Shown here one piece after another: positions 7,680 to 25,425 of a stretch of 64,000 nt of DNA (its first letter is position 1; each line of letters opens with the position of its first letter). Below the pieces are notes generated by a model, which saw only the letters and a program-made list of their open reading frames with translations, searched no databases and was not told the DNA's origin. Position numbers and translations under genes: made by a program. The DNA is taken from positions 1 through 64,000 of IMG/VR virus record IMGVR_UViG_3300037400_002732; one strand, given 5' to 3'. The stretch is from a virus (lineage: Duplodnaviria > Caudoviricetes).

Positions 7680-8186
7680 TTATTTCATCATGGACTGTAT
7701 CGTCGCCTTGTCCAGAAGCCGCTGGTTGGAACTGCCTCGGAATCGCAAGGAAAGGTCTCTCTGAGCTTGAATGAACGGCCCATCGACAAGTACATCAACT
7801 TGGTTCAAAATACGGTCTGTAACGCCTTCTACCCACTTTCTCTGGCAGAAGAGCAAGTCACGGTCGAGTACATAGCCAGTGTACATCCAAAGCGTCTTGG
7901 TAGGGCACTTTTTCTTGAACTTCTCGATGAAGTCAACCAAGCAGATCTGATTCTCTTCTTCGAACGGATCGCCACCAAGAATGCTTAGACCAGCTATGTA
8001 GGATTTTTTACACGATTCGATAATTTCATTCTCTTCGATAGGAGTAAATACGGAACCGTAGTTAAAATCCCACGTTTCCTCGTTGAAACAGCCACGACAA
8101 TGGTTACGGCAACCAGACACAAACAGAGATACCCGGCAGCCTTCACCATCAACAATGCTCATTGGATCTATTTTTCCGTAATACAT
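7680..8186 (-). CDS. nrdG: Anaerobic ribonucleotide reductase activating protein (radical SAM)
   Basis: DGEGCRVSLFVSGCRNHCRGCFN (CxxxCxxC), GGDPF, DVLVDGPF, FRGSSNQR. Confidence 0.95.
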   Translation of the reverse strand: MYYGKIDPMSIVDGEGCRVSLFVSGCRNHCRGCFNEETWDFNYGSVFTPIEENEIIESCKKSYIAGLSILGGDPFEEENQICLVDFIEKFKKKCPTKTLWMYTGYVLDRDLLFCQRKWVEGVTDRILNQVDVLVDGPFIQAQRDLSLRFRGSSNQRLLDKATIQSMMK

Positions 8187-9259
8187 ATTCCATGATTCCG
8201 TTTATGATTTCTGAATGAGGCAATATAGTCTTTGCCGTACGTTTTGGCAACATAATTTTCATATTCAGAACAATCAACAATGATTTTAACTTGATTCTGA
8301 ATCATGCACTGATGTTTTGCCTCATATAATCCGTCTAATCGGTGATTGTATGGGTTAATCATCTGCTTATTTGAGTCTTTGTCCTTGAAGAACTGTCGTC
8401 CCTTCAACTCAATAAGTTGACCATCGACACAGAAATCAGGATTATACCAATGAGTCTTACCGTCATATTCATACGTGAACCGAATGTCTGGCTGGTATTC
8501 AAAGGTAATCTTATGATCGGTTAGCCAGATAAGATACGCCACCTCATAAGAGCTATCAAAGTTCATGCCATTGTATGTGTATTTGTGATGTGCTTTGTCA
8601 CTGACTTGTTTACACTGCATAGGAGTAGATACGCCATAACGCTGTAAAGAAGTTTCTTGAGCTTGCTCACGATTGTTATACGTATGGGTTCCATACCGTT
8701 GAATCTTAGTCTCGTTAGACTTTTGGCCAATGTATTCATAATACGCTTCCACGGAACCATACTTGTCAATCAATGTTTCAAAGCACTTATCGCGATTATT
8801 GTATGTAGCAGAACCATGTCGGCGTAATCTAGTTTCAGAGCACTTTTGACGAAAGTCAACCATGTGCGACGGATGTTCAACACCATAGCGAGCCTTCATA
8901 GTCGCCTCACGAGCGTCCTTAGTAAGCTTACACATTTCAGATGCGCTACCATACTTCTCCGCAATAGCTTGATTGCATTTCGTTTGGCGTACTTCTAAAT
9001 AGTTATCACCATACCGTTCCTTCATGGTCTTATCATAATTCATTGCATAAGATTCGGTTTTATGTGCCTTACTTAACGCGCATTTATGGCACACAAAAGG
9101 ATATGAAATTTTATCCAAATTCTTTACTGACAATGAACCGCATTCAGAGCATACAAAGCTAAATTTCGCTCGTCTATATGCCGTACGTGGTTTCAACTCG
9201 TTAGCTTGGTTTAAATCATCAGCTGACGAAAGATGTGCGCATATATTTGTTTTATCCAT
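8168..9259 (-). CDS. Free-standing putative homing endonuclease: Zn-ribbon, (K/R)YG repeats and C-terminal PD-(D/E)XK nuclease
   Basis: CSEC..CHKC; about 7 repeats like TMKARYGVEHP; FDSSYE..YNPDF..LIELKG; start placed at MDKTN just after the structured leader. Confidence 0.75.
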   Translation of the reverse strand: MDKTNICAHLSSADDLNQANELKPRTAYRRAKFSFVCSECGSLSVKNLDKISYPFVCHKCALSKAHKTESYAMNYDKTMKERYGDNYLEVRQTKCNQAIAEKYGSASEMCKLTKDAREATMKARYGVEHPSHMVDFRQKCSETRLRRHGSATYNNRDKCFETLIDKYGSVEAYYEYIGQKSNETKIQRYGTHTYNNREQAQETSLQRYGVSTPMQCKQVSDKAHHKYTYNGMNFDSSYEVAYLIWLTDHKITFEYQPDIRFTYEYDGKTHWYNPDFCVDGQLIELKGRQFFKDKDSNKQMINPYNHRLDGLYEAKHQCMIQNQVKIIVDCSEYENYVAKTYGKDYIASFRNHKRNHGICITEK

Positions 9260-9264
9260 AAGAA

Positions 9265-9374
9265 ATGACCCGTAGCGGACTAATTTGGCGTTCATTCCAC
9301 TACGGGCCATGTAATAAACATCACCACAGTACATTGAAGAACGCCAATTATCCAATGTTCTGCTTTAAGTTTAT
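9265..9374 (-). ncRNA. Kissing-loop 5' leader A with ATAAACT promoter
   Basis: P1 9327-9362 and P2 9265-9310; loops UUGGCGUUC / GAACGCCAA are complementary. Confidence 0.7.
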
Positions 9375-15011: not shown

Positions 15012-16066
15012 TTTGCCTCTATTTCGGCGAGTCGTTTCGCCTTTTCGACAAAAGCGTCAATCTCCGCTTTCTGATCTGGAGACAAATCTGGAATGGAATA
15101 AAACACTTCGTTGACGAAAGTTGGAATGTAGGCTGGCCCATCTTCCAGCAGAACGGCGTCGAGTATCTTGGTGAAGCTCATTTCGGTTTCGTAGTCCAAG
15201 TCATAGATCGTCGTGTCGATAGTCAGCATGGTCTGCTTAGTACAAGCCCAGCTTAGGCGAACATTTAGTCTACGCTGCTTCTCGTACTTTTCCATTAGTG
15301 ACGACAGTGTCACCTTTCCGGCGATATAACTTTCCAGATCGTCAGCCGTCATGCGACGAATGCATGCGCACAGCTTGCGGTTGGTAGTATAGACGCTAGA
15401 TTTCTGGTATGCCTCTGTATTCACTTGAGGATGGAACAAGTGATACACATGTCCTTCGGTGCGCTTGAGAACGCCGACGAGTCGCTTTATCTTGTATGTA
15501 AACGCATCGTCCTCTGCGCCCCACTCATAGAACTCTTCATCAAACCCATTGACTCGTTCCCAAGTGGATTTCAAGTACATGTTGCACAATCCGGTCTGTC
15601 TCTGGATATGTACACCGTGGAAACAGAACTCGGAATTGATCTGGATTCCACCTAGAAATGAGCGAGTCTGCCCTTCACTGAGATAGTCAACCTCATTGAA
15701 CGGATATACGATTCCGACTTCCGGCGTCTTTAGTAATTCGAGACCAGCTTCGATAGACTTTGCAGCAACGTCGTCGATGTATGCGTCGGCATCCATCATA
15801 ACTATAGTGTCCGTCGTCGCGGATGCTATTGCCATGTTGAGCAATTTAGTCTTGTGGAAACGGCTTCCTTCGGCCACTTCGATACGTCTTACACGCTCAT
15901 TGTAATTGTTTAATTTATCCGAAATAGACGACGAACCTTGTTCCGCGATAATGATTTCCGCGTCAGAAAACAAGGATAGACAACGGTCTAGAACCGCATA
16001 TAAATTGCGTCTACGGAACGAATTCTTGCCATCCATATAGGCAATAATTATCGAAAAATTCGGCAT
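15008..16066 (-). CDS. Glycosyltransferase (GT-A fold, GT2/GT7-like)
   Basis: FSIIIAY, DAD metal motif, GFDEEFYEWGAEDD, HLFH. Confidence 0.9.
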   Translation of the reverse strand: MPNFSIIIAYMDGKNSFRRRNLYAVLDRCLSLFSDAEIIIAEQGSSSISDKLNNYNERVRRIEVAEGSRFHKTKLLNMAIASATTDTIVMMDADAYIDDVAAKSIEAGLELLKTPEVGIVYPFNEVDYLSEGQTRSFLGGIQINSEFCFHGVHIQRQTGLCNMYLKSTWERVNGFDEEFYEWGAEDDAFTYKIKRLVGVLKRTEGHVYHLFHPQVNTEAYQKSSVYTTNRKLCACIRRMTADDLESYIAGKVTLSSLMEKYEKQRRLNVRLSWACTKQTMLTIDTTIYDLDYETEMSFTKILDAVLLEDGPAYIPTFVNEVFYSIPDLSPDQKAEIDAFVEKAKRLAEIEAK

Positions 16067-16080
16067 TCGCGCCTCGATAG

Positions 16081-16087
16081 ATAAACT
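16081..16087 (+). promoter_or_regulatory. Phage late-promoter motif ATAAACT (representative copy)
   Basis: One of at least 20 copies found just upstream of genes. Confidence 0.75.
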
Positions 16088-16128
16088 GCAAAAAGAAATA
16101 TAACAAAAATAATTTCAAAAGGAGTAAA

Positions 16129-17787
16129 ATGCCGTTTAATGGAATTACAAACCTTCGCGACGCGAAGGAGACCGTCAAGCTTAAACCCGAACAGCTTGCG
16201 GAAATAAAAAAGTGCGCTCAAGACCCGTTGTACTTCATGAATAACTACATGTACATCAATACGAAGGACAACGGAATGCAGCTTTTCAAGACTTGGCCTT
16301 TCCAAGAGGCAGCTGTCAAGCGTTTTCTGAAGTACCGTTTTAACATCAACAAATGGAGCCGTCAGGTCGGTAAGTCAACCATCGTCCGTGGGTTCATATT
16401 GTGGTACGCAATGTTTCACGGTGATCAGCTCATTGCTATGCTTGCGAATAAGTTGGCGTTGGCCAAGGAACAGCTTCAACTTCTTCGTGACTCATACATC
16501 GCTCTTCCGTTCTGGTTGCAGCCCGGTGTAAAATTGTGGAACAAGATGAGCATCCAGTTCTCCAACAATACACGTATCATGGCCGCGCCGAGTACAGTGG
16601 ACGGTATTCGTGGTTTCTCGCCGAACCTATTGTACTTGGACGAATTCGCGTTCCTTCGTGCTGGCCTTGCCGAAGAGTTCTGGACATCTAACTTCCCGTC
16701 AATTTCTTCTGGTAAAAAGACCCGCGTCATCATCACTTCGACGCCAAACGGCATGAACCTATTCTACAATCTATGGGAAGGTGCTGTTGACGAAAATACT
16801 GCATCATTCCATGACTTGATGTCAAAATTCGTCAAGTCAACCGTGAAATGGAATGAAGTTCCTGGTCGTGATATTCAATGGGGTATTGACGAAATGGCCC
16901 GTATCGGCGAACAGCGTTTCCGCCAAGAATACGAGTGTGAATTTGTCGGTTCTGCAGTCACATTGATTGACTATAAGATGCTCCAGAAACTCAAGGCTAC
17001 TCCACCGCTTCCTATGGCATGCGTTCCGAACGGCTACCAGATGAGAATGTTCCAGAAGCCATTGCCTCTACAAAAGCTTGAGGTGAACGGATGGGTCTAT
17101 ATCGCGGCAATAGATACTGGTTACGGTATTCGTAAGGACTACCACGTTCTGCACATCCTACTGGCAAAGAGCAATATCGAGCTTGAAGAAGTATTCGTGA
17201 TGTCATCGAACGAGGTGACAATCGAAGACTTCTGTGCACGATCCTACATCGTTCTGTGCGGCTATCACCAGCCAGCACTGACCATCGAATATAACGGCCC
17301 AGGATCTCGTACTTACAGTATCATGTTCAACGACCTACAGTACGAACACTTGGTCAACTATGACAACAAGCTTCGCGGCATGTGGGCGACGGACGGTATC
17401 AAGCAATCCGCAGTCATGCTTCTGAAGCTCTATGTCGAACGCTACTACGTCAAACTCAAGGACGAGGCTACAATTCAAGAACTCATGTCGTTCACCACGA
17501 CAACGCCTAACGGACGTAAATGGGGCGCAACGGACGGCAACCATGACGACAACGTAACCTCATTGTACTGGTGTATCTACTATGCCGCATACCCGCAGTT
17601 CGAAGGAACCCAGAAGGAAATCAATTTCTTGCAAGGCATCGAGCTTGCGTTCACGGCAATCGGCGACATGGGCCAAGAGACCAACAAGGCGTTGGAATTC
17701 GTCAAGGACACCATCGCGCAGAAGGAACAAAATGCTCTGGGCCGCTTGATGCAACAGCAACAAGACGAAGCGGAAGTGATAAACTAG
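16129..17787 (+). CDS. terL: Terminase large subunit (T4 gp17-like)
   Basis: DPLYF, WPFQ, SRQVGKST Walker A, LYLDEFAF Walker B, TSTPNG, FRQEYECEF, nuclease IDTG..HDD. Confidence 0.95.
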   Translation: MPFNGITNLRDAKETVKLKPEQLAEIKKCAQDPLYFMNNYMYINTKDNGMQLFKTWPFQEAAVKRFLKYRFNINKWSRQVGKSTIVRGFILWYAMFHGDQLIAMLANKLALAKEQLQLLRDSYIALPFWLQPGVKLWNKMSIQFSNNTRIMAAPSTVDGIRGFSPNLLYLDEFAFLRAGLAEEFWTSNFPSISSGKKTRVIITSTPNGMNLFYNLWEGAVDENTASFHDLMSKFVKSTVKWNEVPGRDIQWGIDEMARIGEQRFRQEYECEFVGSAVTLIDYKMLQKLKATPPLPMACVPNGYQMRMFQKPLPLQKLEVNGWVYIAAIDTGYGIRKDYHVLHILLAKSNIELEEVFVMSSNEVTIEDFCARSYIVLCGYHQPALTIEYNGPGSRTYSIMFNDLQYEHLVNYDNKLRGMWATDGIKQSAVMLLKLYVERYYVKLKDEATIQELMSFTTTTPNGRKWGATDGNHDDNVTSLYWCIYYAAYPQFEGTQKEINFLQGIELAFTAIGDMGQETNKALEFVKDTIAQKEQNALGRLMQQQQDEAEVIN

Positions 17788-17813
17788 GTACAAAACACTT
17801 GGTATTAAAGCCT

Positions 17814-18653
17814 ATGAACGACTTCGACGATCTTGAAAAACTCAGAAAACTCTCCCGCCCTATCGAACTTCAGGCGGACGCCGAACCAGATGACGACACA
17901 GAGGAAGAAGACCTCGGCGCAGTCGTGAACGACGACGCCATGACAGACCAGCCCTACAACCCAGAAGGCAATGTAAACGTCTACGTTGTCAACGGTGGCG
18001 GAAGTTCTGGTACGCCTAGCAAGAAAAAGCCAAGCAAGCCAGCCATATTCGAGCAAGAGCCGGGTGAAGATTCAGCCGACAGCAATGCAGAAACCGCAAT
18101 GGAATGCGGCCTCGGCCTCAAGATGGGCGGTCTCAAGCTCGGCAAGTCTCTCCGCAACAGCATGGAATGCTGCATGGACATGTGCGACCCCAACTGTGCG
18201 ATAAAATTCAACGTTGGCGACTACGTCAAGCCCACTTGCTGTGAAACCCCAGTCATCCTAGTCGTCAAATGCACGGACGGCTCCAACATCCTCACGGCCA
18301 AGCCTACCGAAGATGCAGCCCAGTGCAGCGAAACTGGATGCTGGCCGGAATTCTCGTTCGAGCAAGACGAGATCGAGCCGATGTCCGAAGTAACCCTCGA
18401 AGACATCTTCAACGTCATGAAGTTCAACGACTCTCCCAAGACGGAAGCTTTCAACGGCGGAGATTACGACGAGACCCCTATGAAGGACGCACAGAAAGGT
18501 GTCCTAAACAACCAGCGTGACAAGAAGGCAGCTACGTTCGACGATATCAACGAATTCATGGAAGACGTATTCGGCCCAGTGCCAGACTATACCGTGAAGG
18601 AAAAGATTTCGCCAGACCAGCCGGAAGAACAGACTAGAAAATTTAATTGGTAG
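17814..18653 (+). CDS. Acidic Cys-containing hypothetical late protein
   Basis: ATAAACT at 17779-17785, then ATG at 17814. Confidence 0.7.
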   Translation: MNDFDDLEKLRKLSRPIELQADAEPDDDTEEEDLGAVVNDDAMTDQPYNPEGNVNVYVVNGGGSSGTPSKKKPSKPAIFEQEPGEDSADSNAETAMECGLGLKMGGLKLGKSLRNSMECCMDMCDPNCAIKFNVGDYVKPTCCETPVILVVKCTDGSNILTAKPTEDAAQCSETGCWPEFSFEQDEIEPMSEVTLEDIFNVMKFNDSPKTEAFNGGDYDETPMKDAQKGVLNNQRDKKAATFDDINEFMEDVFGPVPDYTVKEKISPDQPEEQTRKFNW

Positions 18654-18658
18654 CTAAT

Positions 18659-18763
18659 ATAAACTCATATTATATAAGTTCGTGGTGGTTCTTGTATAAT
18701 GCGTGGTAATTTTTAAATGCCAGTTGGATGCTAACCACCACTTTAAGCGTCTAACTGGCATTT
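18659..18763 (+). ncRNA. Kissing-loop 5' leader B with ATAAACT promoter
   Basis: P1 18668-18701 and P2 18715-18763; loops GUGGUGGUU / AACCACCAC are complementary. Confidence 0.7.
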
Positions 18764-18771
18764 GCTATTGT

Positions 18772-20154
18772 ATGGAACAGCAGTGCGGACGAAAGATAGG
18801 CTTACTGCCGACTAAGGCTCAGATACGGACGATGTACCGTATGTGTGCAGTCGCTCGTCACGCATATAACTGGAAGCTCGCTGTCCAGAATCAAGCCTAC
18901 GAGGAAGCCAAGAAGAACACACCAGAAGGTGAAAAGCCAAAGTGTAAGCTCGGTACTCCTATTGACTGGCATAAGGAATGGTGCATCCACAAGAAGCTCC
19001 CAGAAAACAAGTGGATGACAGAAGTATCCAAGTTCTGCGGCCAAGAGGCCCTAATCGACCTCGGTTCCGCATGGAAGCGGTTCTTCAAGGGTCTAGCCAA
19101 GCATCCACGGTTCCATAAGTACGGCGTAGACGAATCGTTCCGGTGTTCTGGCGGAGTATTCATTGGTCGTGATTTCGTTCAGTTGCCTACGCTCGGCAGA
19201 GTAAGACTAGCCGAGAAGGATTACATCAAGATACCGGACGGTGTGGTGAAGACTCCGATTGCGATGGCTACAGTATCAGTAGACCCTACTGGTCACTGGT
19301 CGATATCGTTCGCCTACCATGTCGATGTAGAACCACTTTATTCGCCCAATACCGAAATTACTTCCGATGACATCGAAGGCATCGACCTCGGTGTGAAGGA
19401 TTCTGGAATCACTTCTAGTGGAATAGTATATTCCAATCCGAAGGCATACCGACGCTATATAGCTCGTATCAAGAGATTGCAGAAGGCAATATCTAGGAAA
19501 CGCAAGAAGTCAAAGAACCGCAAGAAGGCTAGTAAGCGGTTAGCCAAGACTTGGCACAAGGTCACCTGTATCAGAGTGAACCATGCTCACCAGATGACTT
19601 CCGACCTAACTTACAAGTTGAAGCCAAAGATGATTGTGATGGAGACACTTCGACCAGGTAATATGACGAAGAACCACAATCTTGCATCCAGTATCCTAGA
19701 TGCCAATTTCGGTAGAATCAAGGAATTTCTTAAATACAAGTGCCAATGGCTTGGTATCAATCTCATCTTTGCTCCGCAGTTCTATGCAAGCAGTCGATAC
19801 TGCTCGCACTGTGGATGCTACCATAATGACAATTTAACTCTCGCTGACCGTGAATGGACATGCCCGGTATGCGGCTGTCATCATGACCGTGACGCCAATG
19901 CGGCGGTCAACCTCAAATTCTATGGTCAGTGGTTGGCTGGACTCGTCCAGACCGACGAAAATGTTGCGGCGCGATTAGCCGTAGGCGGATGTTCCGCCGA
20001 TGCTTGCCCTTCTGTATATCAGAAGGAAGGTATGACTTTTGTCAACCCCAGAGACCGGAGGTTACAGTTCTTCCTAACGGATGAATCGTGCCGGACTATG
20101 AAGCAAGAACTCAATACATATTATAAACCATACAATAGTATAAACTATGGTTAA
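18772..20154 (+). CDS. tnpB: TnpB RNA-guided RuvC nuclease (IS200/IS605 or IS607 type), no tnpA
   Basis: HTH_OrfB-like N-terminus (ARHAYNW), GIDLGVK RuvC-I, VMETL RuvC-II, CSHCG..CPVCG Zn finger, DRDANAAVNL RuvC-III. Confidence 0.92.
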   Translation: MEQQCGRKIGLLPTKAQIRTMYRMCAVARHAYNWKLAVQNQAYEEAKKNTPEGEKPKCKLGTPIDWHKEWCIHKKLPENKWMTEVSKFCGQEALIDLGSAWKRFFKGLAKHPRFHKYGVDESFRCSGGVFIGRDFVQLPTLGRVRLAEKDYIKIPDGVVKTPIAMATVSVDPTGHWSISFAYHVDVEPLYSPNTEITSDDIEGIDLGVKDSGITSSGIVYSNPKAYRRYIARIKRLQKAISRKRKKSKNRKKASKRLAKTWHKVTCIRVNHAHQMTSDLTYKLKPKMIVMETLRPGNMTKNHNLASSILDANFGRIKEFLKYKCQWLGINLIFAPQFYASSRYCSHCGCYHNDNLTLADREWTCPVCGCHHDRDANAAVNLKFYGQWLAGLVQTDENVAARLAVGGCSADACPSVYQKEGMTFVNPRDRRLQFFLTDESCRTMKQELNTYYKPYNSINYG

Positions 20155-20186
20155 CGCAAATATATTGAGAAATCGGAGCCCTATAA

Positions 20187-20516
20187 ATGAAGCCAAAGCT
20201 TTTCTTTGATAGCGGTTGCCCAGTCTGCTCCGAATACAAGAGGCTTGTCAAGAACAAGCTCGGCGATTCGGTCGAGTACGTACCCATCGAGGCGTACAAG
20301 AGCGACTTCGAATACAATGACGCCAACGGAAAGAAGTACGTAGGTTCAAAGGCTGTCGAGAAGTTGTCGGAAGACTTTCCGGCAATCAAGGACTACGTTT
20401 GGATCCTTCCGGAAAAACTGAAAGTTACTGGACTGAAGGTTGCATACAAGGTAGGCAGCGTCGTCCGCAAGACTATCGCCACGGTGCATCACGGTTGCAA
20501 CTGCGGCAAGCACTAG
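20187..20516 (+). CDS. Thioredoxin/glutaredoxin-fold protein (DCC-like)
   Basis: LFFDSGCPVC motif. Confidence 0.7.
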   Translation: MKPKLFFDSGCPVCSEYKRLVKNKLGDSVEYVPIEAYKSDFEYNDANGKKYVGSKAVEKLSEDFPAIKDYVWILPEKLKVTGLKVAYKVGSVVRKTIATVHHGCNCGKH

Positions 20517-20541
20517 AATTGACCTCCTATGTTAATACAAC

Positions 20542-20566
20542 AAAGCCAGTCGAAAGACTGGCTTTT
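20542..20566. terminator. Bidirectional terminator
   Basis: AAAGCCAGTC-GAAA-GACTGGCTTTT. Confidence 0.85.
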
Positions 20567-20569
20567 CCG

Positions 20570-21112
20570 TTATTTGTCGTTGGCGTCCGTCGAGTACATT
20601 TCCCGGAACTTGTCTATGGTCAAATCGGTATCGACTTGCCGTTCGGCACTCTGTCTGAGAATGTCATCGATACGGTGCAACAAGTCATCCTTGCATTCGG
20701 ACAATACCGCATAGGCCAAGTCATTGTAGTTGGTATTGATCAAGTCCATTTCGTGACGGTGCCGCCTCATGAAATAGCTTACATAAGGGCCGATGTTAAT
20801 CACGAGACGGTCTGGACGTTCACCGACAGATTGGTTGAACACTACTGGCTTGATGTCGTTTGCCGTGCCGAAATAGATTCGTAGCAATGCGCCAGCCACA
20901 AGCAAGGTCAGTCCCTTCGGAACCATCGTCACGTTGCTACGTTCGGCGAGAACCTTGCCGAGACGGCCTTCACGATATTCATTCTCGATTCGATTCCATA
21001 TTCGCTCTCCCATCGTCGCCGTCGGGATCTGCTTGTACAGATCGAGGATGGCTTCGCATAGTGACTTATCGTCACCGCAAAGCTCGTTAATCATGTTGAC
21101 CATCGTTACCAT
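20570..21112 (-). CDS. Hypothetical late protein
   Basis: 180 aa; ATAAACT at 21139-21145 (minus). Confidence 0.7.
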   Translation of the reverse strand: MVTMVNMINELCGDDKSLCEAILDLYKQIPTATMGERIWNRIENEYREGRLGKVLAERSNVTMVPKGLTLLVAGALLRIYFGTANDIKPVVFNQSVGERPDRLVINIGPYVSYFMRRHRHEMDLINTNYNDLAYAVLSECKDDLLHRIDDILRQSAERQVDTDLTIDKFREMYSTDANDK

Positions 21113-21127
21113 AAGCTGTCCAGTGAA

Positions 21128-21514
21128 TTACACTAGTGAGTTTATCAGCTGCAGCGTGTCTTCGCCGTCGTGCATGAGAATGATTGGCATCCTCTCATAC
21201 AAGTTCGGTAGTGAGCCAAGCGTATTGTAGTCAAACCACTCTTGAGCCATTTCCTCCGGATCGTCGTCTGGGTCGCAGTCCTTGGCGAACATCTTTGCCA
21301 AGCATTGAATGCAGAGGTCGGCGTCGTACACCGCGACAAGAACGTTGCATGGCTTCGGTCGTTTCTTCGACTTGCGGAACCTACGGACATACATGCCTAC
21401 GATGGCATCGTCCATGTCGTCTATGAAATAAACGGTCTGGTTCTTGGAAGCCGCAACCTTCTTCTCGATATCGGCCTTTGTGGCCTTGATGTACTTCGGT
21501 GGTTTTCTCAACAT
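21128..21514 (-). CDS. Hypothetical phage protein
   Basis: 128 aa; DDAIVG..AVYD..EWFDYNTLG resembles a common phage family. Confidence 0.7.
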   Translation of the reverse strand: MLRKPPKYIKATKADIEKKVAASKNQTVYFIDDMDDAIVGMYVRRFRKSKKRPKPCNVLVAVYDADLCIQCLAKMFAKDCDPDDDPEEMAQEWFDYNTLGSLPNLYERMPIILMHDGEDTLQLINSLV

Positions 21515-21517
21515 AGT

Positions 21518-22390
21518 CTACCCGATGGCTATCTTGGTTCCGCTGACCGGAGCCAAGTATTTTAACGTCACATGGAGCTGGCCCAGTTCAAACTTGCAGT
21601 CGATGTCGCCACGATCCACGGGTCTGTCGATGCGGTAGAGAACTGTGTGCGTTCCGAGTAGAAAGTTAGGAATATTTATCTGCGCTTGCCACTTGTTTTC
21701 TTCTTTTTTACGTTTACCGCCCTTTTTCGTGCCCTTCGGAGCAGACTGCTTCGCTTCGGCGGACATCATCGATACACGAGGTTCGCGCTTGAACGTGACG
21801 GCAACCTCGTTGTTCTGCGTAAGAACAAGGTCGATATCTTCCTTGGGTATGCCAGGAAGATCAACGAAAAGATGGAACTCGGTATCGGTCATCACGATTT
21901 CAGACGGCGGCTCCGGCAACAATCCTTGCATCGGAGGCGGTTGCTGAGGCTGATTGTTGATAGGAATCGGCATGCCTTGCGGCGGCTGTTGCGGAGGCGG
22001 CTGCTGCATATAAGGCTGTTGAGGCGGCGATGGCGGCGCGTAGTTCGGAGCCATCTGTCCATAAGCAGCTGGTTGCATGGGAGTCCCCGGCGGAAGCTGC
22101 TGTGTCTGTACACCTACACCTCGTCCACGCGGCGGTGCCGAGCTCGGAGGAAGGCCCACGCGACGGTTGAAAGCATCGCTGTTCCTTGCTACTTCATTCG
22201 CCATTTCATCAATGATTCTCGGATTGATCGGAGTTCCACTACCGTCGCTCAATCCGTTGCTGATTACAGATGTATAGTCTGGTTGACCAGTAAAAATAAG
22301 AGTATCGCTCATATCTGACCTTGCTTTAATGTATTCGACATCCACCTTGTGGCCACGAAATAATCCGCTTATAAAGTTCAATAATCCCAT
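21518..22390 (-). CDS. Hsp20/alpha-crystallin domain protein with a Pro/Gln-rich linker
   Basis: FHLFVDLPGIPKEDIDL..IDCKFELGQLHVTL. Confidence 0.75.
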   Translation of the reverse strand: MGLLNFISGLFRGHKVDVEYIKARSDMSDTLIFTGQPDYTSVISNGLSDGSGTPINPRIIDEMANEVARNSDAFNRRVGLPPSSAPPRGRGVGVQTQQLPPGTPMQPAAYGQMAPNYAPPSPPQQPYMQQPPPQQPPQGMPIPINNQPQQPPPMQGLLPEPPSEIVMTDTEFHLFVDLPGIPKEDIDLVLTQNNEVAVTFKREPRVSMMSAEAKQSAPKGTKKGGKRKKEENKWQAQINIPNFLLGTHTVLYRIDRPVDRGDIDCKFELGQLHVTLKYLAPVSGTKIAIG

Positions 22391-24555: not shown

Positions 24556-25317
24556 TTACATTATTTCATTTTCAAGCAGAACTGAAGCAATTCGTTTAAT
24601 TACATTAGCCTTGTCGGCCTTATATTCGCTTGCCCATACGGAAATTACTGTGTAGCCCATTCCTCGAAGCACGTCCAAACGTTCTTTGTCATGTTCCCAG
24701 ATGTCCTTGGCGGTTATATTATGGTGAATAATATCGGTTGCTTGATATTTAGCTGGATTAGCATGCCAGAAATCGCCGTCATACTCAATAATGTACTTAC
24801 CAAAGGTGAAGTCCGGAAATATCCACTTGTCGCCATAAGGAATTGTTTTCATTGACTCAAGTTTACTCGCCGATTCGCCCAAGGATTGACGTAAGTCTTC
24901 GCCAAACTGTAATTGTTCCTTAGAAAAATTAGGCGATACATGTTGATTCCATACTATTGCGCCACTTTTCCACGTCTGCTTAAACCGTTCTGCACGAAGT
25001 TTTCGCTGTTCGGGATCTTTAAATTGCTCATGCGCGTTTTTACTCTGTAACGCTTTAAATTCATCCGAACGAGTCAGACCAGTCATGCCAGATATGACTT
25101 TAGCACGATATGAATCATCCTCCCACAATTTCTTAGAAGCATCTGCAGTAGCCAATTTAATCTTATCTACGGTTTCTTTTGAATGTTTACGACCGAAAAA
25201 CGGATTATTAGCCCCAGTTCGATCGCGGTGCGCGTTGCAATAGCCAGATTTATTTTTGTCACTTATACGGCAACCACACTTCAAGCAATGCTTATTCAAT
25301 TTATGTCCACTAGCCAT
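24556..25317 (-). CDS. Putative homing endonuclease: NUMOD3 DNA-binding motif plus Vsr/DUF559-like nuclease
   Basis: CLKCG..YCNAH; NPFFGRKHSKET (NUMOD3); FPDF..IIEYDGDFWH..D..R...GYTVISVWASE. Confidence 0.8.
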   Translation of the reverse strand: MASGHKLNKHCLKCGCRISDKNKSGYCNAHRDRTGANNPFFGRKHSKETVDKIKLATADASKKLWEDDSYRAKVISGMTGLTRSDEFKALQSKNAHEQFKDPEQRKLRAERFKQTWKSGAIVWNQHVSPNFSKEQLQFGEDLRQSLGESASKLESMKTIPYGDKWIFPDFTFGKYIIEYDGDFWHANPAKYQATDIIHHNITAKDIWEHDKERLDVLRGMGYTVISVWASEYKADKANVIKRIASVLLENEIM

Positions 25318-25323
25318 AAAAAA

Positions 25324-25425
25324 ATCCTACCGGAACTAGCCCTTCCGATAGGATACAACACGCCTAAGCGTGTTTAAACTTAACTACATATCAGCAAGGG
25401 CTAGTTGCTTTTAATAGAAGTTTAT
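25324..25425 (-). ncRNA. Kissing-loop 5' leader C with ATAAACT promoter
   Basis: P1 loop ACUAGCCCU (25397-25405); P2 25324-25354 with loop AGGGCUAGU; extra hairpin at 25357-25374. Confidence 0.65.

What the first reader, a model, noticed from the sequence alone, without database searches (positions are those of the whole stretch)
18659..18774. Leader B: a solo TnpB driven by a phage promoter and kissing-loop leader instead of an IS left end with tnpA
ATAAACT lies at 18659-18665. P1 (18668-18678/18691-18701) has loop UUCGUGGUGGUU. P2 (18715-18732/18746-18763, 18 bp, 2 G-U) has loop AACCACCACUUUA. The AUG is at 18772. No Y1 or serine transposase is nearby. Sharing this regulation with two homing endonucleases suggests TnpB is used here as an RNA-guided homing endonuclease or a domesticated phage nuclease.
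Basis: partly seen in the sequence, partly recalled or inferred. Interest (0 to 1): 0.8.

Follow-up and report, generated by a model that had tools for sequence, protein, structure and literature searches.

The report
Kissing-loop RNA leader before phage TnpB
In a cattle-rumen phage, an RNA-guided nuclease gene (TnpB) that has lost its transposase sits behind a folded RNA leader whose two hairpin loops pair with each other. Matched mutations keep this fold in every relative, and the nuclease's predicted guide matches an insert-free version of the same phage found in other rumen samples.

Summary
P1, P2 and the 9-nt loop-loop helix are real. Across 11 leaders, 33 of 35 pairs covary. The loop-loop helix is 99% paired, all nine of its pairs covary, and it has no G-U pair.

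The element is not an IS200/IS605 left end. This TnpB lineage belongs to IS607. Relatives 59-67% identical carry a serine-recombinase tnpA and have no leader. In tnpA-less copies the leader sits where tnpA would be.

The window's copy (18633-20174) has a truncated left end. It ends on the IS607 GG rule and has an intact RuvC triad and a covarying omega-RNA scaffold.

Rumen metagenome contigs hold the same phage without the insert. The predicted guide (20177-20196) matches that empty allele exactly, next to a GGG motif. A sister phage carries IscB plus HEARO RNA at the same junction.

The same leader architecture precedes a PD-(D/E)XK endonuclease here and two other TnpB lineages elsewhere.

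Most likely the leader is a portable late-promoter cassette that holds nuclease expression down, and TnpB spreads by homing. The leader's mechanism is inferred, not shown.

Earlier notes of this scan report similar kissing-loop leaders before homing endonucleases in other phages. I found no published description.

The parts
18633..20174 (+). Inserted tnpA-less IS607-type TnpB element. It is 1542 nt and replaces 21 nt of the empty allele.
   Evidence: Contigs of DNA runs X2 and X6 and of RNA-library run X21 join 18632 to 20175 with 21 other letters between them; flanks are 98.8-100% identical. Empty junctions are also seen in L019 and L021.
18633..18658 (+). Degenerate remnant of the left end. 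It supplies a new C-terminus and stop codon (18651-18653) to the upstream gene 17814-18653. It holds a 12-mer (18642-18653) that is unique in the record and identical to a right-end subsite of the L005-type elements.
   Evidence: The outer left-end terminus conserved in 9 canonical copies is absent here.
18659..18665 (+). ATAAACT, the phage late-promoter-like motif.
   Evidence: Enrichment and position upstream of ORF starts. It is conserved in the left end of related elements. Promoter activity is inferred.
18668..18701 (+). Hairpin P1: 11 bp here with an 8-bp conserved core, and the 12-nt loop 18679-18690.
   Evidence: all 8 core pairs covary across 11 leaders.
18682..18690 (+). Loop-1 strand of the kissing helix.
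   Evidence: Pairs with 18733-18741. 9 of 9 pairs covary, 99% of cells are paired, and there is no G-U. Duplex energy is -13.7 kcal/mol.
18715..18763 (+). Hairpin P2: 18 bp with the 13-nt loop 18733-18745. The first 9 loop bases form the loop-2 strand of the kissing helix.
   Evidence: 16 of 18 pairs covary. G-U pairs occur on this strand only, which points to RNA. Hairpin energy is -26 kcal/mol.
18764..18774 (+). U-rich 8-nt spacer without a Shine-Dalgarno sequence, followed by the AUG of tnpB.
   Evidence: Anti-SD duplex energy is -1.5 kcal/mol against a genome median of -4.65.
18772..20154 (+). tnpB, 460 aa, with the RuvC triad D205/E291/D374 intact.
   Evidence: Pfam. Residues invariant in alignment A1. 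Aligned to ISDra2 TnpB D191/E278/D361 at E 4.5e-47.
19957..20176 (+). Predicted omega-RNA scaffold. It overlaps the 3' end of tnpB and ends in ...CGG.
   Evidence: Consensus fold of 11 relatives: 45 pairs, 18 of them with compensatory changes. The window replaces the closing helix with its own 7-bp helix, 20109-15/20163-69.
20140..20146 (+). Second ATAAACT, inside a right-end insert found only in the window, 40 nt upstream of the downstream gene's ATG (20187).
   Evidence: In the empty allele the two flanking genes abut with no promoter between them.
20177..20196 (+). Predicted guide-encoding flank, which is also the target sequence in the empty allele.
   Evidence: Relatives diverge exactly after the terminal CGG. 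The run X2 contig is identical over 20175-20600 and places this sequence directly after ...ATGGG.
9257..9374 (-). Leader A: ATAAACT, P1 (8 bp), P2 (15 bp), a 9-nt loop-loop helix and the AUG at 9259. It precedes the DUF7487 + PD-(D/E)XK endonuclease gene (8168-9259) inserted between nrdD and nrdG.
   Evidence: (42 bits, E 2e-8 with the TnpB-only model).
25315..25425 (-). Leader C, a variant. After ATAAACT, an 11-nt segment is complementary to the whole 11-nt loop of an 8-bp hairpin that ends 9 nt before the AUG at 25317. It precedes the I-TevI-ZnF/NUMOD3/Vsr-like endonuclease gene 24556-25317.
   Evidence: The covariance models do not detect it.

Best explanation
18633-20174 is a tnpA-less derivative of an IS607-family element (TnpB plus omega RNA) in a T4-type rumen phage.

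It once entered a GGG site that mimics its own right end, at the junction of two abutting genes. It later lost its outer left end together with 21 nt of flank, so a transposase can no longer move it.

Its tnpB is transcribed from a phage late-type promoter (ATAAACT) through a leader of about 105 nt. The leader folds as RNA into P1 and P2, locked by a 9-bp Watson-Crick loop-loop helix.

The leader is a portable cassette. These phages place it in front of selfish nuclease genes: three TnpB lineages and a PD-(D/E)XK endonuclease.

Most likely function (inferred): it holds nuclease output low. A hairpin of -26 kcal/mol, braced by the kissing helix, ends 5-13 nt before a start codon that has no Shine-Dalgarno sequence. 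Its U-rich tail may also stop a share of transcripts.

The TnpB made late in infection, loaded with omega RNA whose guide is 20177-20196, would cut insert-free genomes of co-infecting phages next to GGG. Recombinational repair would then copy the element in, which is homing.

Shown: the fold, the family, the borders, the empty allele and the guide match. Inferred: promoter activity, the throttling mechanism, cleavage and homing.
For: Fold:
- Searches show covariation of P1, P2 and the kissing helix. The kissing helix was not part of the covariance model that made the alignment.
- G-U pairs occur only on the sense strand.
- One search gives the shuffle control.

Family:
- L010, L011 and L014 carry a MerR-HTH + Resolvase tnpA directly upstream of tnpB and have no leader.
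- Outer left-end homology links the tnpA-bearing and the leader-bearing copies.
- All left flanks end in GGG and all right ends end in CGG. This is the IS607 rule as stated in PMC13565253.

Mobile unit:
- L005, L006, L009 and L015 share 1.64 kb that includes the promoter and leader, in unrelated flanks.

Empty allele and guide match.

Nuclease and guide RNA look intact.

Cassette spread:
- Leader A.
- L031 before a different TnpB.
- L036 and L040 before a third TnpB-like protein.

Precedent: T-even homing endonuclease genes use late promoters, inhibitory hairpins and 5' terminators, and embed promoters for downstream genes (PMC2988022). The ATAAACT at 20140 fits the last point.

No Shine-Dalgarno sequence precedes tnpB, while about 55% of crude gene calls have one.
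Against: - No RNA ends, translation data or cleavage data exist for this element.
- Unlike the T4 cases, the promoter lies upstream of both hairpins, so late transcripts do not escape the structure. P2 sequesters neither a Shine-Dalgarno sequence nor the AUG itself.
- L032 has an exposed Shine-Dalgarno sequence 18 nt after P2.
- L041 is a leader with no nuclease gene behind it.
- The second TnpB of this phage has ATAAACT but no leader. So the leader is neither required for nuclease genes nor restricted to them.
- The window's right end is atypical: it has a 53-nt insert and a shortened terminal motif, so the omega RNA may be impaired.
- The record is only 46% complete, so a tnpA elsewhere in this phage is not excluded.
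Confidence: 0.6

Rival explanations
1. P2 with its U-rich tail is an intrinsic terminator. On this reading the leader is a transcription attenuator, or a small RNA of about 100 nt made from ATAAACT. The kissing helix tunes how many polymerases read on into the nuclease gene. Control would act on transcription rather than translation.
For: - The ten leaders whose tails I read by eye (not tallied by a tool) have at least 5 of 8 U directly after the G+C-rich part of P2. Several have runs of 5-7 U.
- In L041 the structure lies between nrdD and nrdG, with a U-run and then a normal Shine-Dalgarno sequence and AUG 40 nt later.
- T4 mobE and segF carry terminators at their 5' ends (PMC2988022).
- The window's element carries its own promoter for the downstream gene (20140), as expected if transcription often stops upstream.
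Against: - A 13-nt loop and a 15-18-bp stem are atypical for terminators. The consensus scan did not call P2.
- The U tract is weak in the window itself.
- The AUG stays 5-13 nt from P2 in most leaders, which a pure terminator would not need.
- No 3'-end data exist.
Confidence: 0.22
2. The leader mainly sets mRNA fate. One version: P1 at the very 5' end of the late transcript, locked to P2, protects the RNA from 5'-end-dependent decay. Another version: the roughly 35-bp quasi-continuous P1-kiss-P2 stack is an RNase III or RNase E processing site.
For: - P1 starts 8-9 nt after ATAAACT in most leaders (5-13 nt over all), close to where a T4-type late start would fall (the start site itself is inferred).
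- RNase E processing is reported for T4 segB and segG and for Aeh1 mobE (PMC2988022).
Against: - A simple 5' hairpin would be enough for protection.
- This does not explain the strict Watson-Crick 9-bp loop pairing, or why P2 sits next to the AUG.
- No data exist on RNA ends.
Confidence: 0.1
3. The copy in the window is a decaying relic. Its left end is truncated, its right end is altered and TnpB is no longer active. On this reading the leader is only inherited baggage, and the insert/empty polymorphism reflects old lineages rather than homing.
For: - The outer left end and 21 nt of flank are missing.
- The right-end terminal motif is shortened and interrupted by a 53-nt insert.
Against: - The ORF is full length with an invariant catalytic triad, and it is 93% identical to L004.
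- The closing helix of the omega RNA is rebuilt by a different 7-bp pairing.
- All three helices of the leader are intact.
- Flanks of the empty allele are 98.8-100% identical, so the polymorphism is recent.
Confidence: 0.07
4. P1 and P2 are DNA hairpins of an IS200/IS605-type left end, recognised by a Y1 TnpA supplied in trans.
For: Only the general resemblance: a subterminal hairpin upstream of a tnpB gene.
Against: - Complete relatives use a serine recombinase.
- Insertion is after GGG, not after an AT-rich tetranucleotide.
- The hairpins hold G-U pairs, which would be mismatches in DNA.
- The same fold precedes non-IS nuclease genes.
- No Y1 transposase is found in the record.
- The tnpA-bearing copies lack the hairpins.
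Confidence: 0.01

Closest known systems
IS607-family elements (serine-recombinase TnpA + TnpB + right-end omega RNA)
   Same: - The TnpB is homologous, with an intact RuvC triad.
- Relatives carry a MerR-HTH/Resolvase tnpA whose stop codon overlaps the tnpB start.
- The ends terminate in GG and insertion is after GG(G).
- The guide is taken from the right flank.
- The target resembles the right end except at one base (GGG against CGG).
   Different: - The window's copy and at least 8 relatives have no tnpA. A structured leader with its own phage-type promoter stands in its place.
- The window's outer left end is deleted.
- The omega RNA is not the Rfam RAGATH-18 type: no Rfam hit was found.
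Regulatory leaders of T-even homing endonuclease genes (I-TevI/II/III, segB, Aeh1 mobE; seg43 of phage 25), PMC2988022
   Same: - A late promoter lies directly upstream of a selfish nuclease gene.
- A very stable hairpin lies next to the start site.
- A promoter for the displaced downstream gene is embedded in the element.
- The presumed purpose is low, late expression.
   Different: - There are two hairpins joined by a covarying 9-bp loop-loop helix.
- The promoter lies upstream of the whole structure, so late transcripts keep it.
- No Shine-Dalgarno sequence is sequestered.
- The leader serves RNA-guided nucleases as well as protein-only endonucleases.
Kissing-loop leaders of phage homing endonuclease genes noted earlier in this scan (unpublished AI notes, e.g. 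e1-5731239, e1-5511533)
   Same: - Two hairpins whose loops pair through a different matched sequence in nearly every copy.
- They sit in front of nuclease genes of unrelated families.
- They are absent from Rfam.
   Different: - In those notes a loop pairs with the ribosome-binding site, or a promoter sits between the hairpins. Neither holds here.
- Those notes name only protein endonucleases. Here the cargo includes three TnpB lineages, and the leader is embedded in an IS607 derivative.
- I did not test for sequence homology between the families.
TnpB 'restorative homing' in IS605/IS607 (Meers et al. 2023; review PMC13565253)
   Same: The guide equals the flank, a TAM lies on the left of the empty site, and the empty allele is the predicted target.
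   Different: - Here no transposase creates the empty site.
- The target would be a different genome, that of a co-infecting phage. The review lists this only as a category ('non-restorative homing').

Membership tests
IS607 family | TnpB with a RuvC D-E-D triad and a zinc-finger/TNB domain | tested here: met
   Pfam domains. D205/E291/D374 are invariant and align to the ISDra2 catalytic residues.
IS607 family | Serine-recombinase TnpA (MerR-type HTH + Resolvase domain) encoded next to tnpB | tested here: not met
   Absent from the window's copy and from the 175 kb held. Present in relatives L010, L011 and L014. The window's copy is therefore a tnpA-less derivative, not a complete member.
IS607 family | Ends terminate in GG, with insertion at or after GG | tested here: met
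   The right end is ...CGG in all 11 copies. Left flanks are ...GGG in 9 canonical copies. The empty allele is ...ATGGG|AGCCC.
IS607 family | Intact left end with recombinase-binding repeats | tested here: not met
   Homology to L015 starts at ATAAACT. The conserved outer terminus is absent and 21 nt of flank are missing.
TnpB/omega-RNA guided nuclease | Structured RNA scaffold at the 3' end of tnpB, followed by a flank-derived guide | tested here: met
   45-pair consensus, 18 pairs with compensatory change. Sequences diverge exactly after CGG. Expression and loading were not tested.
TnpB/omega-RNA guided nuclease | RNA-guided, TAM-dependent DNA cleavage | not testable with these tools
   Needs a biochemical or plasmid interference assay.
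IS200/IS605 left end | Y1 (HUH) TnpA and subterminal DNA hairpins at both ends, with insertion 3' of an AT-rich tetra- or pentanucleotide | tested here: not met
   No Y1_Tnp in the record. The hairpins need G-U pairs. Insertion is after GGG.
T4-type RBS-sequestering hairpin with embedded late promoter | The hairpin pairs with the Shine-Dalgarno sequence, and the late promoter is placed so that late transcripts lack one arm | tested here: not met
   tnpB has no Shine-Dalgarno sequence. ATAAACT lies 2-13 nt upstream of P1 in all copies. No promoter motif lies between P1 and P2.
Intrinsic terminator | G+C-rich hairpin with a short loop, followed directly by a U tract | tested here: inconclusive
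   A U-rich tail is present after P2 in the leaders read by eye. The loop is 13 nt and the consensus scan does not call it.
Any Rfam family (including RAGATH-18, HEARO, IS605-orfB motifs) | Match to the covariance model at the gathering score | tested here: not met
   No match in the window at gathering score. Nothing relevant in 18500-20400 at E up to 10. As a positive control, HEARO was found in L020.
Kissing-loop leader of phage nuclease genes (unpublished class) | Two hairpins with covarying loop-loop pairing, directly upstream of a selfish nuclease gene | tested here: met

The most novel reading that the evidence does not exclude
Lytic rumen phages host RNA-guided nucleases (TnpB, and IscB at the very same junction) that have given up transposition and live as homing elements. 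They would spread between co-infecting phage genomes by guide-directed cleavage of empty alleles. A previously undescribed, portable kissing-loop RNA cassette would make this tolerable by timing and limiting nuclease synthesis. That cassette would be a general expression governor for selfish nucleases, exchanged between protein-only and RNA-guided ones.
Probability: 0.4. Interest if true: 0.85.

Novelty: new variant of a known kind. Interest (0 to 1): 0.72.

Why it matters
- It offers a natural, population-level case for studying TnpB as a transposase-independent homing nuclease in viruses. The occupied allele, the empty allele, the guide and the candidate TAM are all defined. A recent review lists this mode only as a category.
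- It adds a strongly covarying RNA fold, absent from Rfam, to the known means by which selfish nucleases are kept harmless to their carrier.
- It shows that this fold is modular. It serves at least three TnpB lineages and a restriction-like endonuclease, and it replaces tnpA inside an IS.
- For tool builders, the leader is a compact candidate part for tuning nuclease dose, with a built-in test by compensatory mutation.

Tried and rejected
- Rfam gave nothing for the leader or the omega RNA.
- Megablast of 16000-22000 against GenBank phages found no match.
- Viral-contig searches with the Leader A and Leader C endonucleases found only distant relatives at 28-33% identity (one short 68% stretch). 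They could not serve for covariation.
- A first DNA pattern for P2 was mis-specified by me and found nothing.
- The corrected pattern returned only the known loci plus three chance matches without a hairpin. This sequence type of leader is therefore rare in IMG/VR.
- Pseudoknot-free folding predicts an alternative pairing of the P1 region with the start region in the window. It is not kept in the relatives, so I rejected it as a switch.
- I considered a split ribosome-binding site, with a GGA in the spacer brought to the AUG by P2. I dropped it because the effective spacing would be 12-15 nt and L004 lacks the GGA.
- By eye I saw no complementarity between the kissing loops and the guide or target.
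- RNA-library contigs do not cover 18646-19850. Being contigs, they say nothing about expression of the leader.
- The single genome-contig scan gave only two rumen MAG contigs, both carrying the leader. It gave no host assignment.

Full report
**Observation**

- ATAAACT lies at 18659-65.
- P1 is 18668-78/18691-701 with a 12-nt loop.
- P2 is 18715-32/18746-63 with a 13-nt loop.
- The loops share a perfect 9-nt complement, 18682-90 with 18733-41.
- The AUG is at 18772, 8 nt after P2, and no Shine-Dalgarno sequence precedes it.
- The ORF is a TnpB.

The pattern is not chance. A scan of both strands of the 175-kb virus record for neighbouring hairpins with complementary loops returns two loci, this one and Leader A. 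Six shuffled genomes gave none.

**The fold is selected, and as RNA**

IMG/VR holds relatives of this TnpB.
- Eight of them carry ATAAACT, P1 and P2. Their loop pairs differ in sequence but stay complementary.
- On a MAFFT alignment of 7 leaders, 97.6% of cells pair. The kissing helix is 100% Watson-Crick, and 5 of its 9 pairs changed on both sides.
- A covariance model of P1 and P2 only, built from TnpB leaders, also finds Leader A of this window (42 bits), L004, and two new leaders, L031 and L032.
- On the resulting 11-row alignment, 33 of 35 pairs covary.
- The kissing helix was not in that model. It is nevertheless 99% paired, all 9 of its pairs covary, and it has no G-U.
- P1 and P2 hold many G-U pairs on the sense strand. 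The structure is therefore RNA, not a DNA cruciform.
- Energies are about -6 (P1), -26 (P2) and -14 kcal/mol (kiss duplex).

**What the element is**

Relatives L010, L011 and L014 (59-67% identical in TnpB) have a MerR-HTH + Resolvase serine recombinase upstream of tnpB. This is the IS607 arrangement. They have no kissing leader: after ATAAAC(C/T) come a Shine-Dalgarno sequence, a small ORF and tnpA.

The outer left end of the leader-bearing copies L012 and L013 matches the left end upstream of tnpA in L004, L010 and L011. The leader-bearing copies are therefore tnpA-less derivatives in which the leader occupies the place of tnpA.

L005, L006, L009 and L015 share a 1.64-kb unit that includes about 115 nt of left end, the promoter, the leader, tnpB and the right end. 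Their flanks are unrelated. The leader thus travels inside the mobile unit.

All right ends finish in a shared motif ending in CGG, after which the sequences diverge. All canonical left flanks end in GGG. This fits the published IS607 rule: ends in GG, insertion after GG, G-rich TAM (PMC13565253).

The 3' 220 nt fold into a conserved scaffold with 18 covarying pairs. The catalytic triad is intact.

**The window's copy and its empty allele**

Sister phages L019 and L021 have the upstream gene abutting the DCC1-like gene with no insert.

Contigs from two bovine-gut DNA studies and one RNA library carry this very phage (flanks 98.8-100% identical). They join 18632 to 20175, with 21 other letters in between. 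The insert is therefore 18633-20174.

The right junction obeys the GG rule. The empty target upstream of the junction equals the canonical right-end terminus except for one base (GGG against CGG). That is what a serine recombinase choosing an end-like site would give. It would also let TnpB tell empty alleles from occupied ones.

The predicted guide, 20177-20196, is identical to the empty allele.

On the left, the conserved outer terminus and 21 nt of flank are gone. The upstream protein has a new C-terminus. No recombinase gene occurs in the 175 kb held. Transposition of this copy is thus excluded as far as the data reach, and homing is the remaining way to spread.

The right end of this copy carries a unique 53-nt insert with a second ATAAACT, 40 nt before the downstream gene. 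This parallels the promoters embedded in T4 seg and mob genes (PMC2988022).

**The leader as a cassette**

In this window the same architecture precedes a DUF7487/PD-(D/E)XK endonuclease wedged between nrdD and nrdG. A pseudoknot variant precedes a NUMOD3/Vsr-like endonuclease downstream of rtcB.

In related contigs a broader model finds it in three further settings:
- before a second TnpB lineage (L031);
- before a third, 500-aa TnpB-like protein (L036, L040);
- before an unassigned 285-aa ORF (L032).

It also finds one copy with no nuclease gene, between nrdD and nrdG (L041).

The second TnpB of this phage (31% identical) has ATAAACT but no leader.

**Mechanism**

ATAAACT behaves like a T4-type late promoter core. 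It occurs 55 times in the record, and 80% of copies lie within 50 nt of an ORF start, typically about 25 nt. It has no conserved upstream element. That it is a promoter remains an inference.

P1 begins 8-9 nt after the motif in most copies, near the expected transcript start. The promoter lies upstream of both hairpins. The T4 logic, in which late transcripts escape the inhibitory hairpin, therefore does not apply.

I favour a constitutive throttle. A very stable P2, braced by the kiss, abuts a start codon without a Shine-Dalgarno sequence.

The U-rich tail after every P2 keeps a terminator/attenuator reading alive. RNA stabilisation or processing is a weaker rival. None of these can be decided without RNA-end or reporter data.

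**Novelty**

Four literature searches found no description of such a leader, or of phage TnpB homing with defined alleles.

Earlier AI notes of this scan report kissing-loop leaders before homing endonucleases in at least 23 other phage genomes. They are unchecked by me, and they differ in where the promoter and the ribosome-binding site lie.

New here are the link to RNA-guided nucleases, the replacement of tnpA inside an IS607 derivative, and the matching empty allele.

Noticed in passing
L020:4349-5926 (IMG/VR 3300028832_003333), homologous to the junction 18653/20187 of the window: A sister phage carries a HEARO omega RNA (Rfam RF02033, 132 bits) plus a 428-aa IscB (RRXRR + HNH) at the same gene junction. 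This one junction therefore exists empty, with TnpB, or with IscB.
   Followed up: partly
window 20127-20137 versus 18766-18776: An 11-nt segment of the window-specific right-end insert, predicted to sit in a hairpin of the omega RNA, is the exact complement of the tnpB start region including the AUG. It is not seen in relatives. It may be an inverted micro-duplication or an antisense feedback element.
   Followed up: no
window 18642-18653; L005:4371-4382; L006:4350-4361: A 12-mer that is unique in the 175-kb record lies just left of Leader B. It is identical to a right-end subsite of the L005-type elements and has the same orientation. How it came to the left junction is unexplained.
   Followed up: partly
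L011:1143-2990 and L014:918-2990: A 615-690-aa GIY-YIG/NUMOD homing-endonuclease-like gene is inserted between tnpA and tnpB of otherwise complete IS607-type elements.
   Followed up: no
L004:2100-3000: This is a nested insertion. A tnpA-less element (left end, 84-aa small ORF, leader, tnpB) sits at a TGGG inside the tnpA of another IS607-like element, leaving only the HTH part of that tnpA.
   Followed up: partly
L041 (G007:12974-13091, minus strand): A solo kissing-loop leader lies between an nrdD-like gene and nrdG, with no nuclease gene. P2 is followed by a U run, then a normal Shine-Dalgarno sequence and AUG 40 nt later. In the window the same intergenic place holds Leader A plus its endonuclease.
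   Followed up: no
L019:1086-2401: The terminase large-subunit gene of this sister phage is interrupted by about 1.3 kb that is absent from the window (16726-16740). It is probably an intron, an intein or a homing endonuclease gene.
   Followed up: no
G000:C1:92859-94067 (minus strand; L002:1387-2595): A second TnpB, 402 aa and 31% identical, has ATAAACT about 40 nt before its AUG and no kissing leader. A short G+C-rich hairpin lies further upstream.
   Followed up: partly
L010:2040-2215, L011:330-505, L014:100-270: A small ORF of about 65-85 aa lies between the left-end promoter and tnpA, overlapping the tnpA start in another frame. Its function is unknown. It is retained in L004 upstream of the leader.
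   Followed up: no
window 19849-20112 in RNA-library runs X20 and X21: Metatranscriptome contigs cover only the 3' end of tnpB (the omega-RNA scaffold region). They then continue into right-end sequence unlike the window's, L004-type in X20. This is a weak hint that the omega RNA is the abundant RNA species.
   Followed up: no
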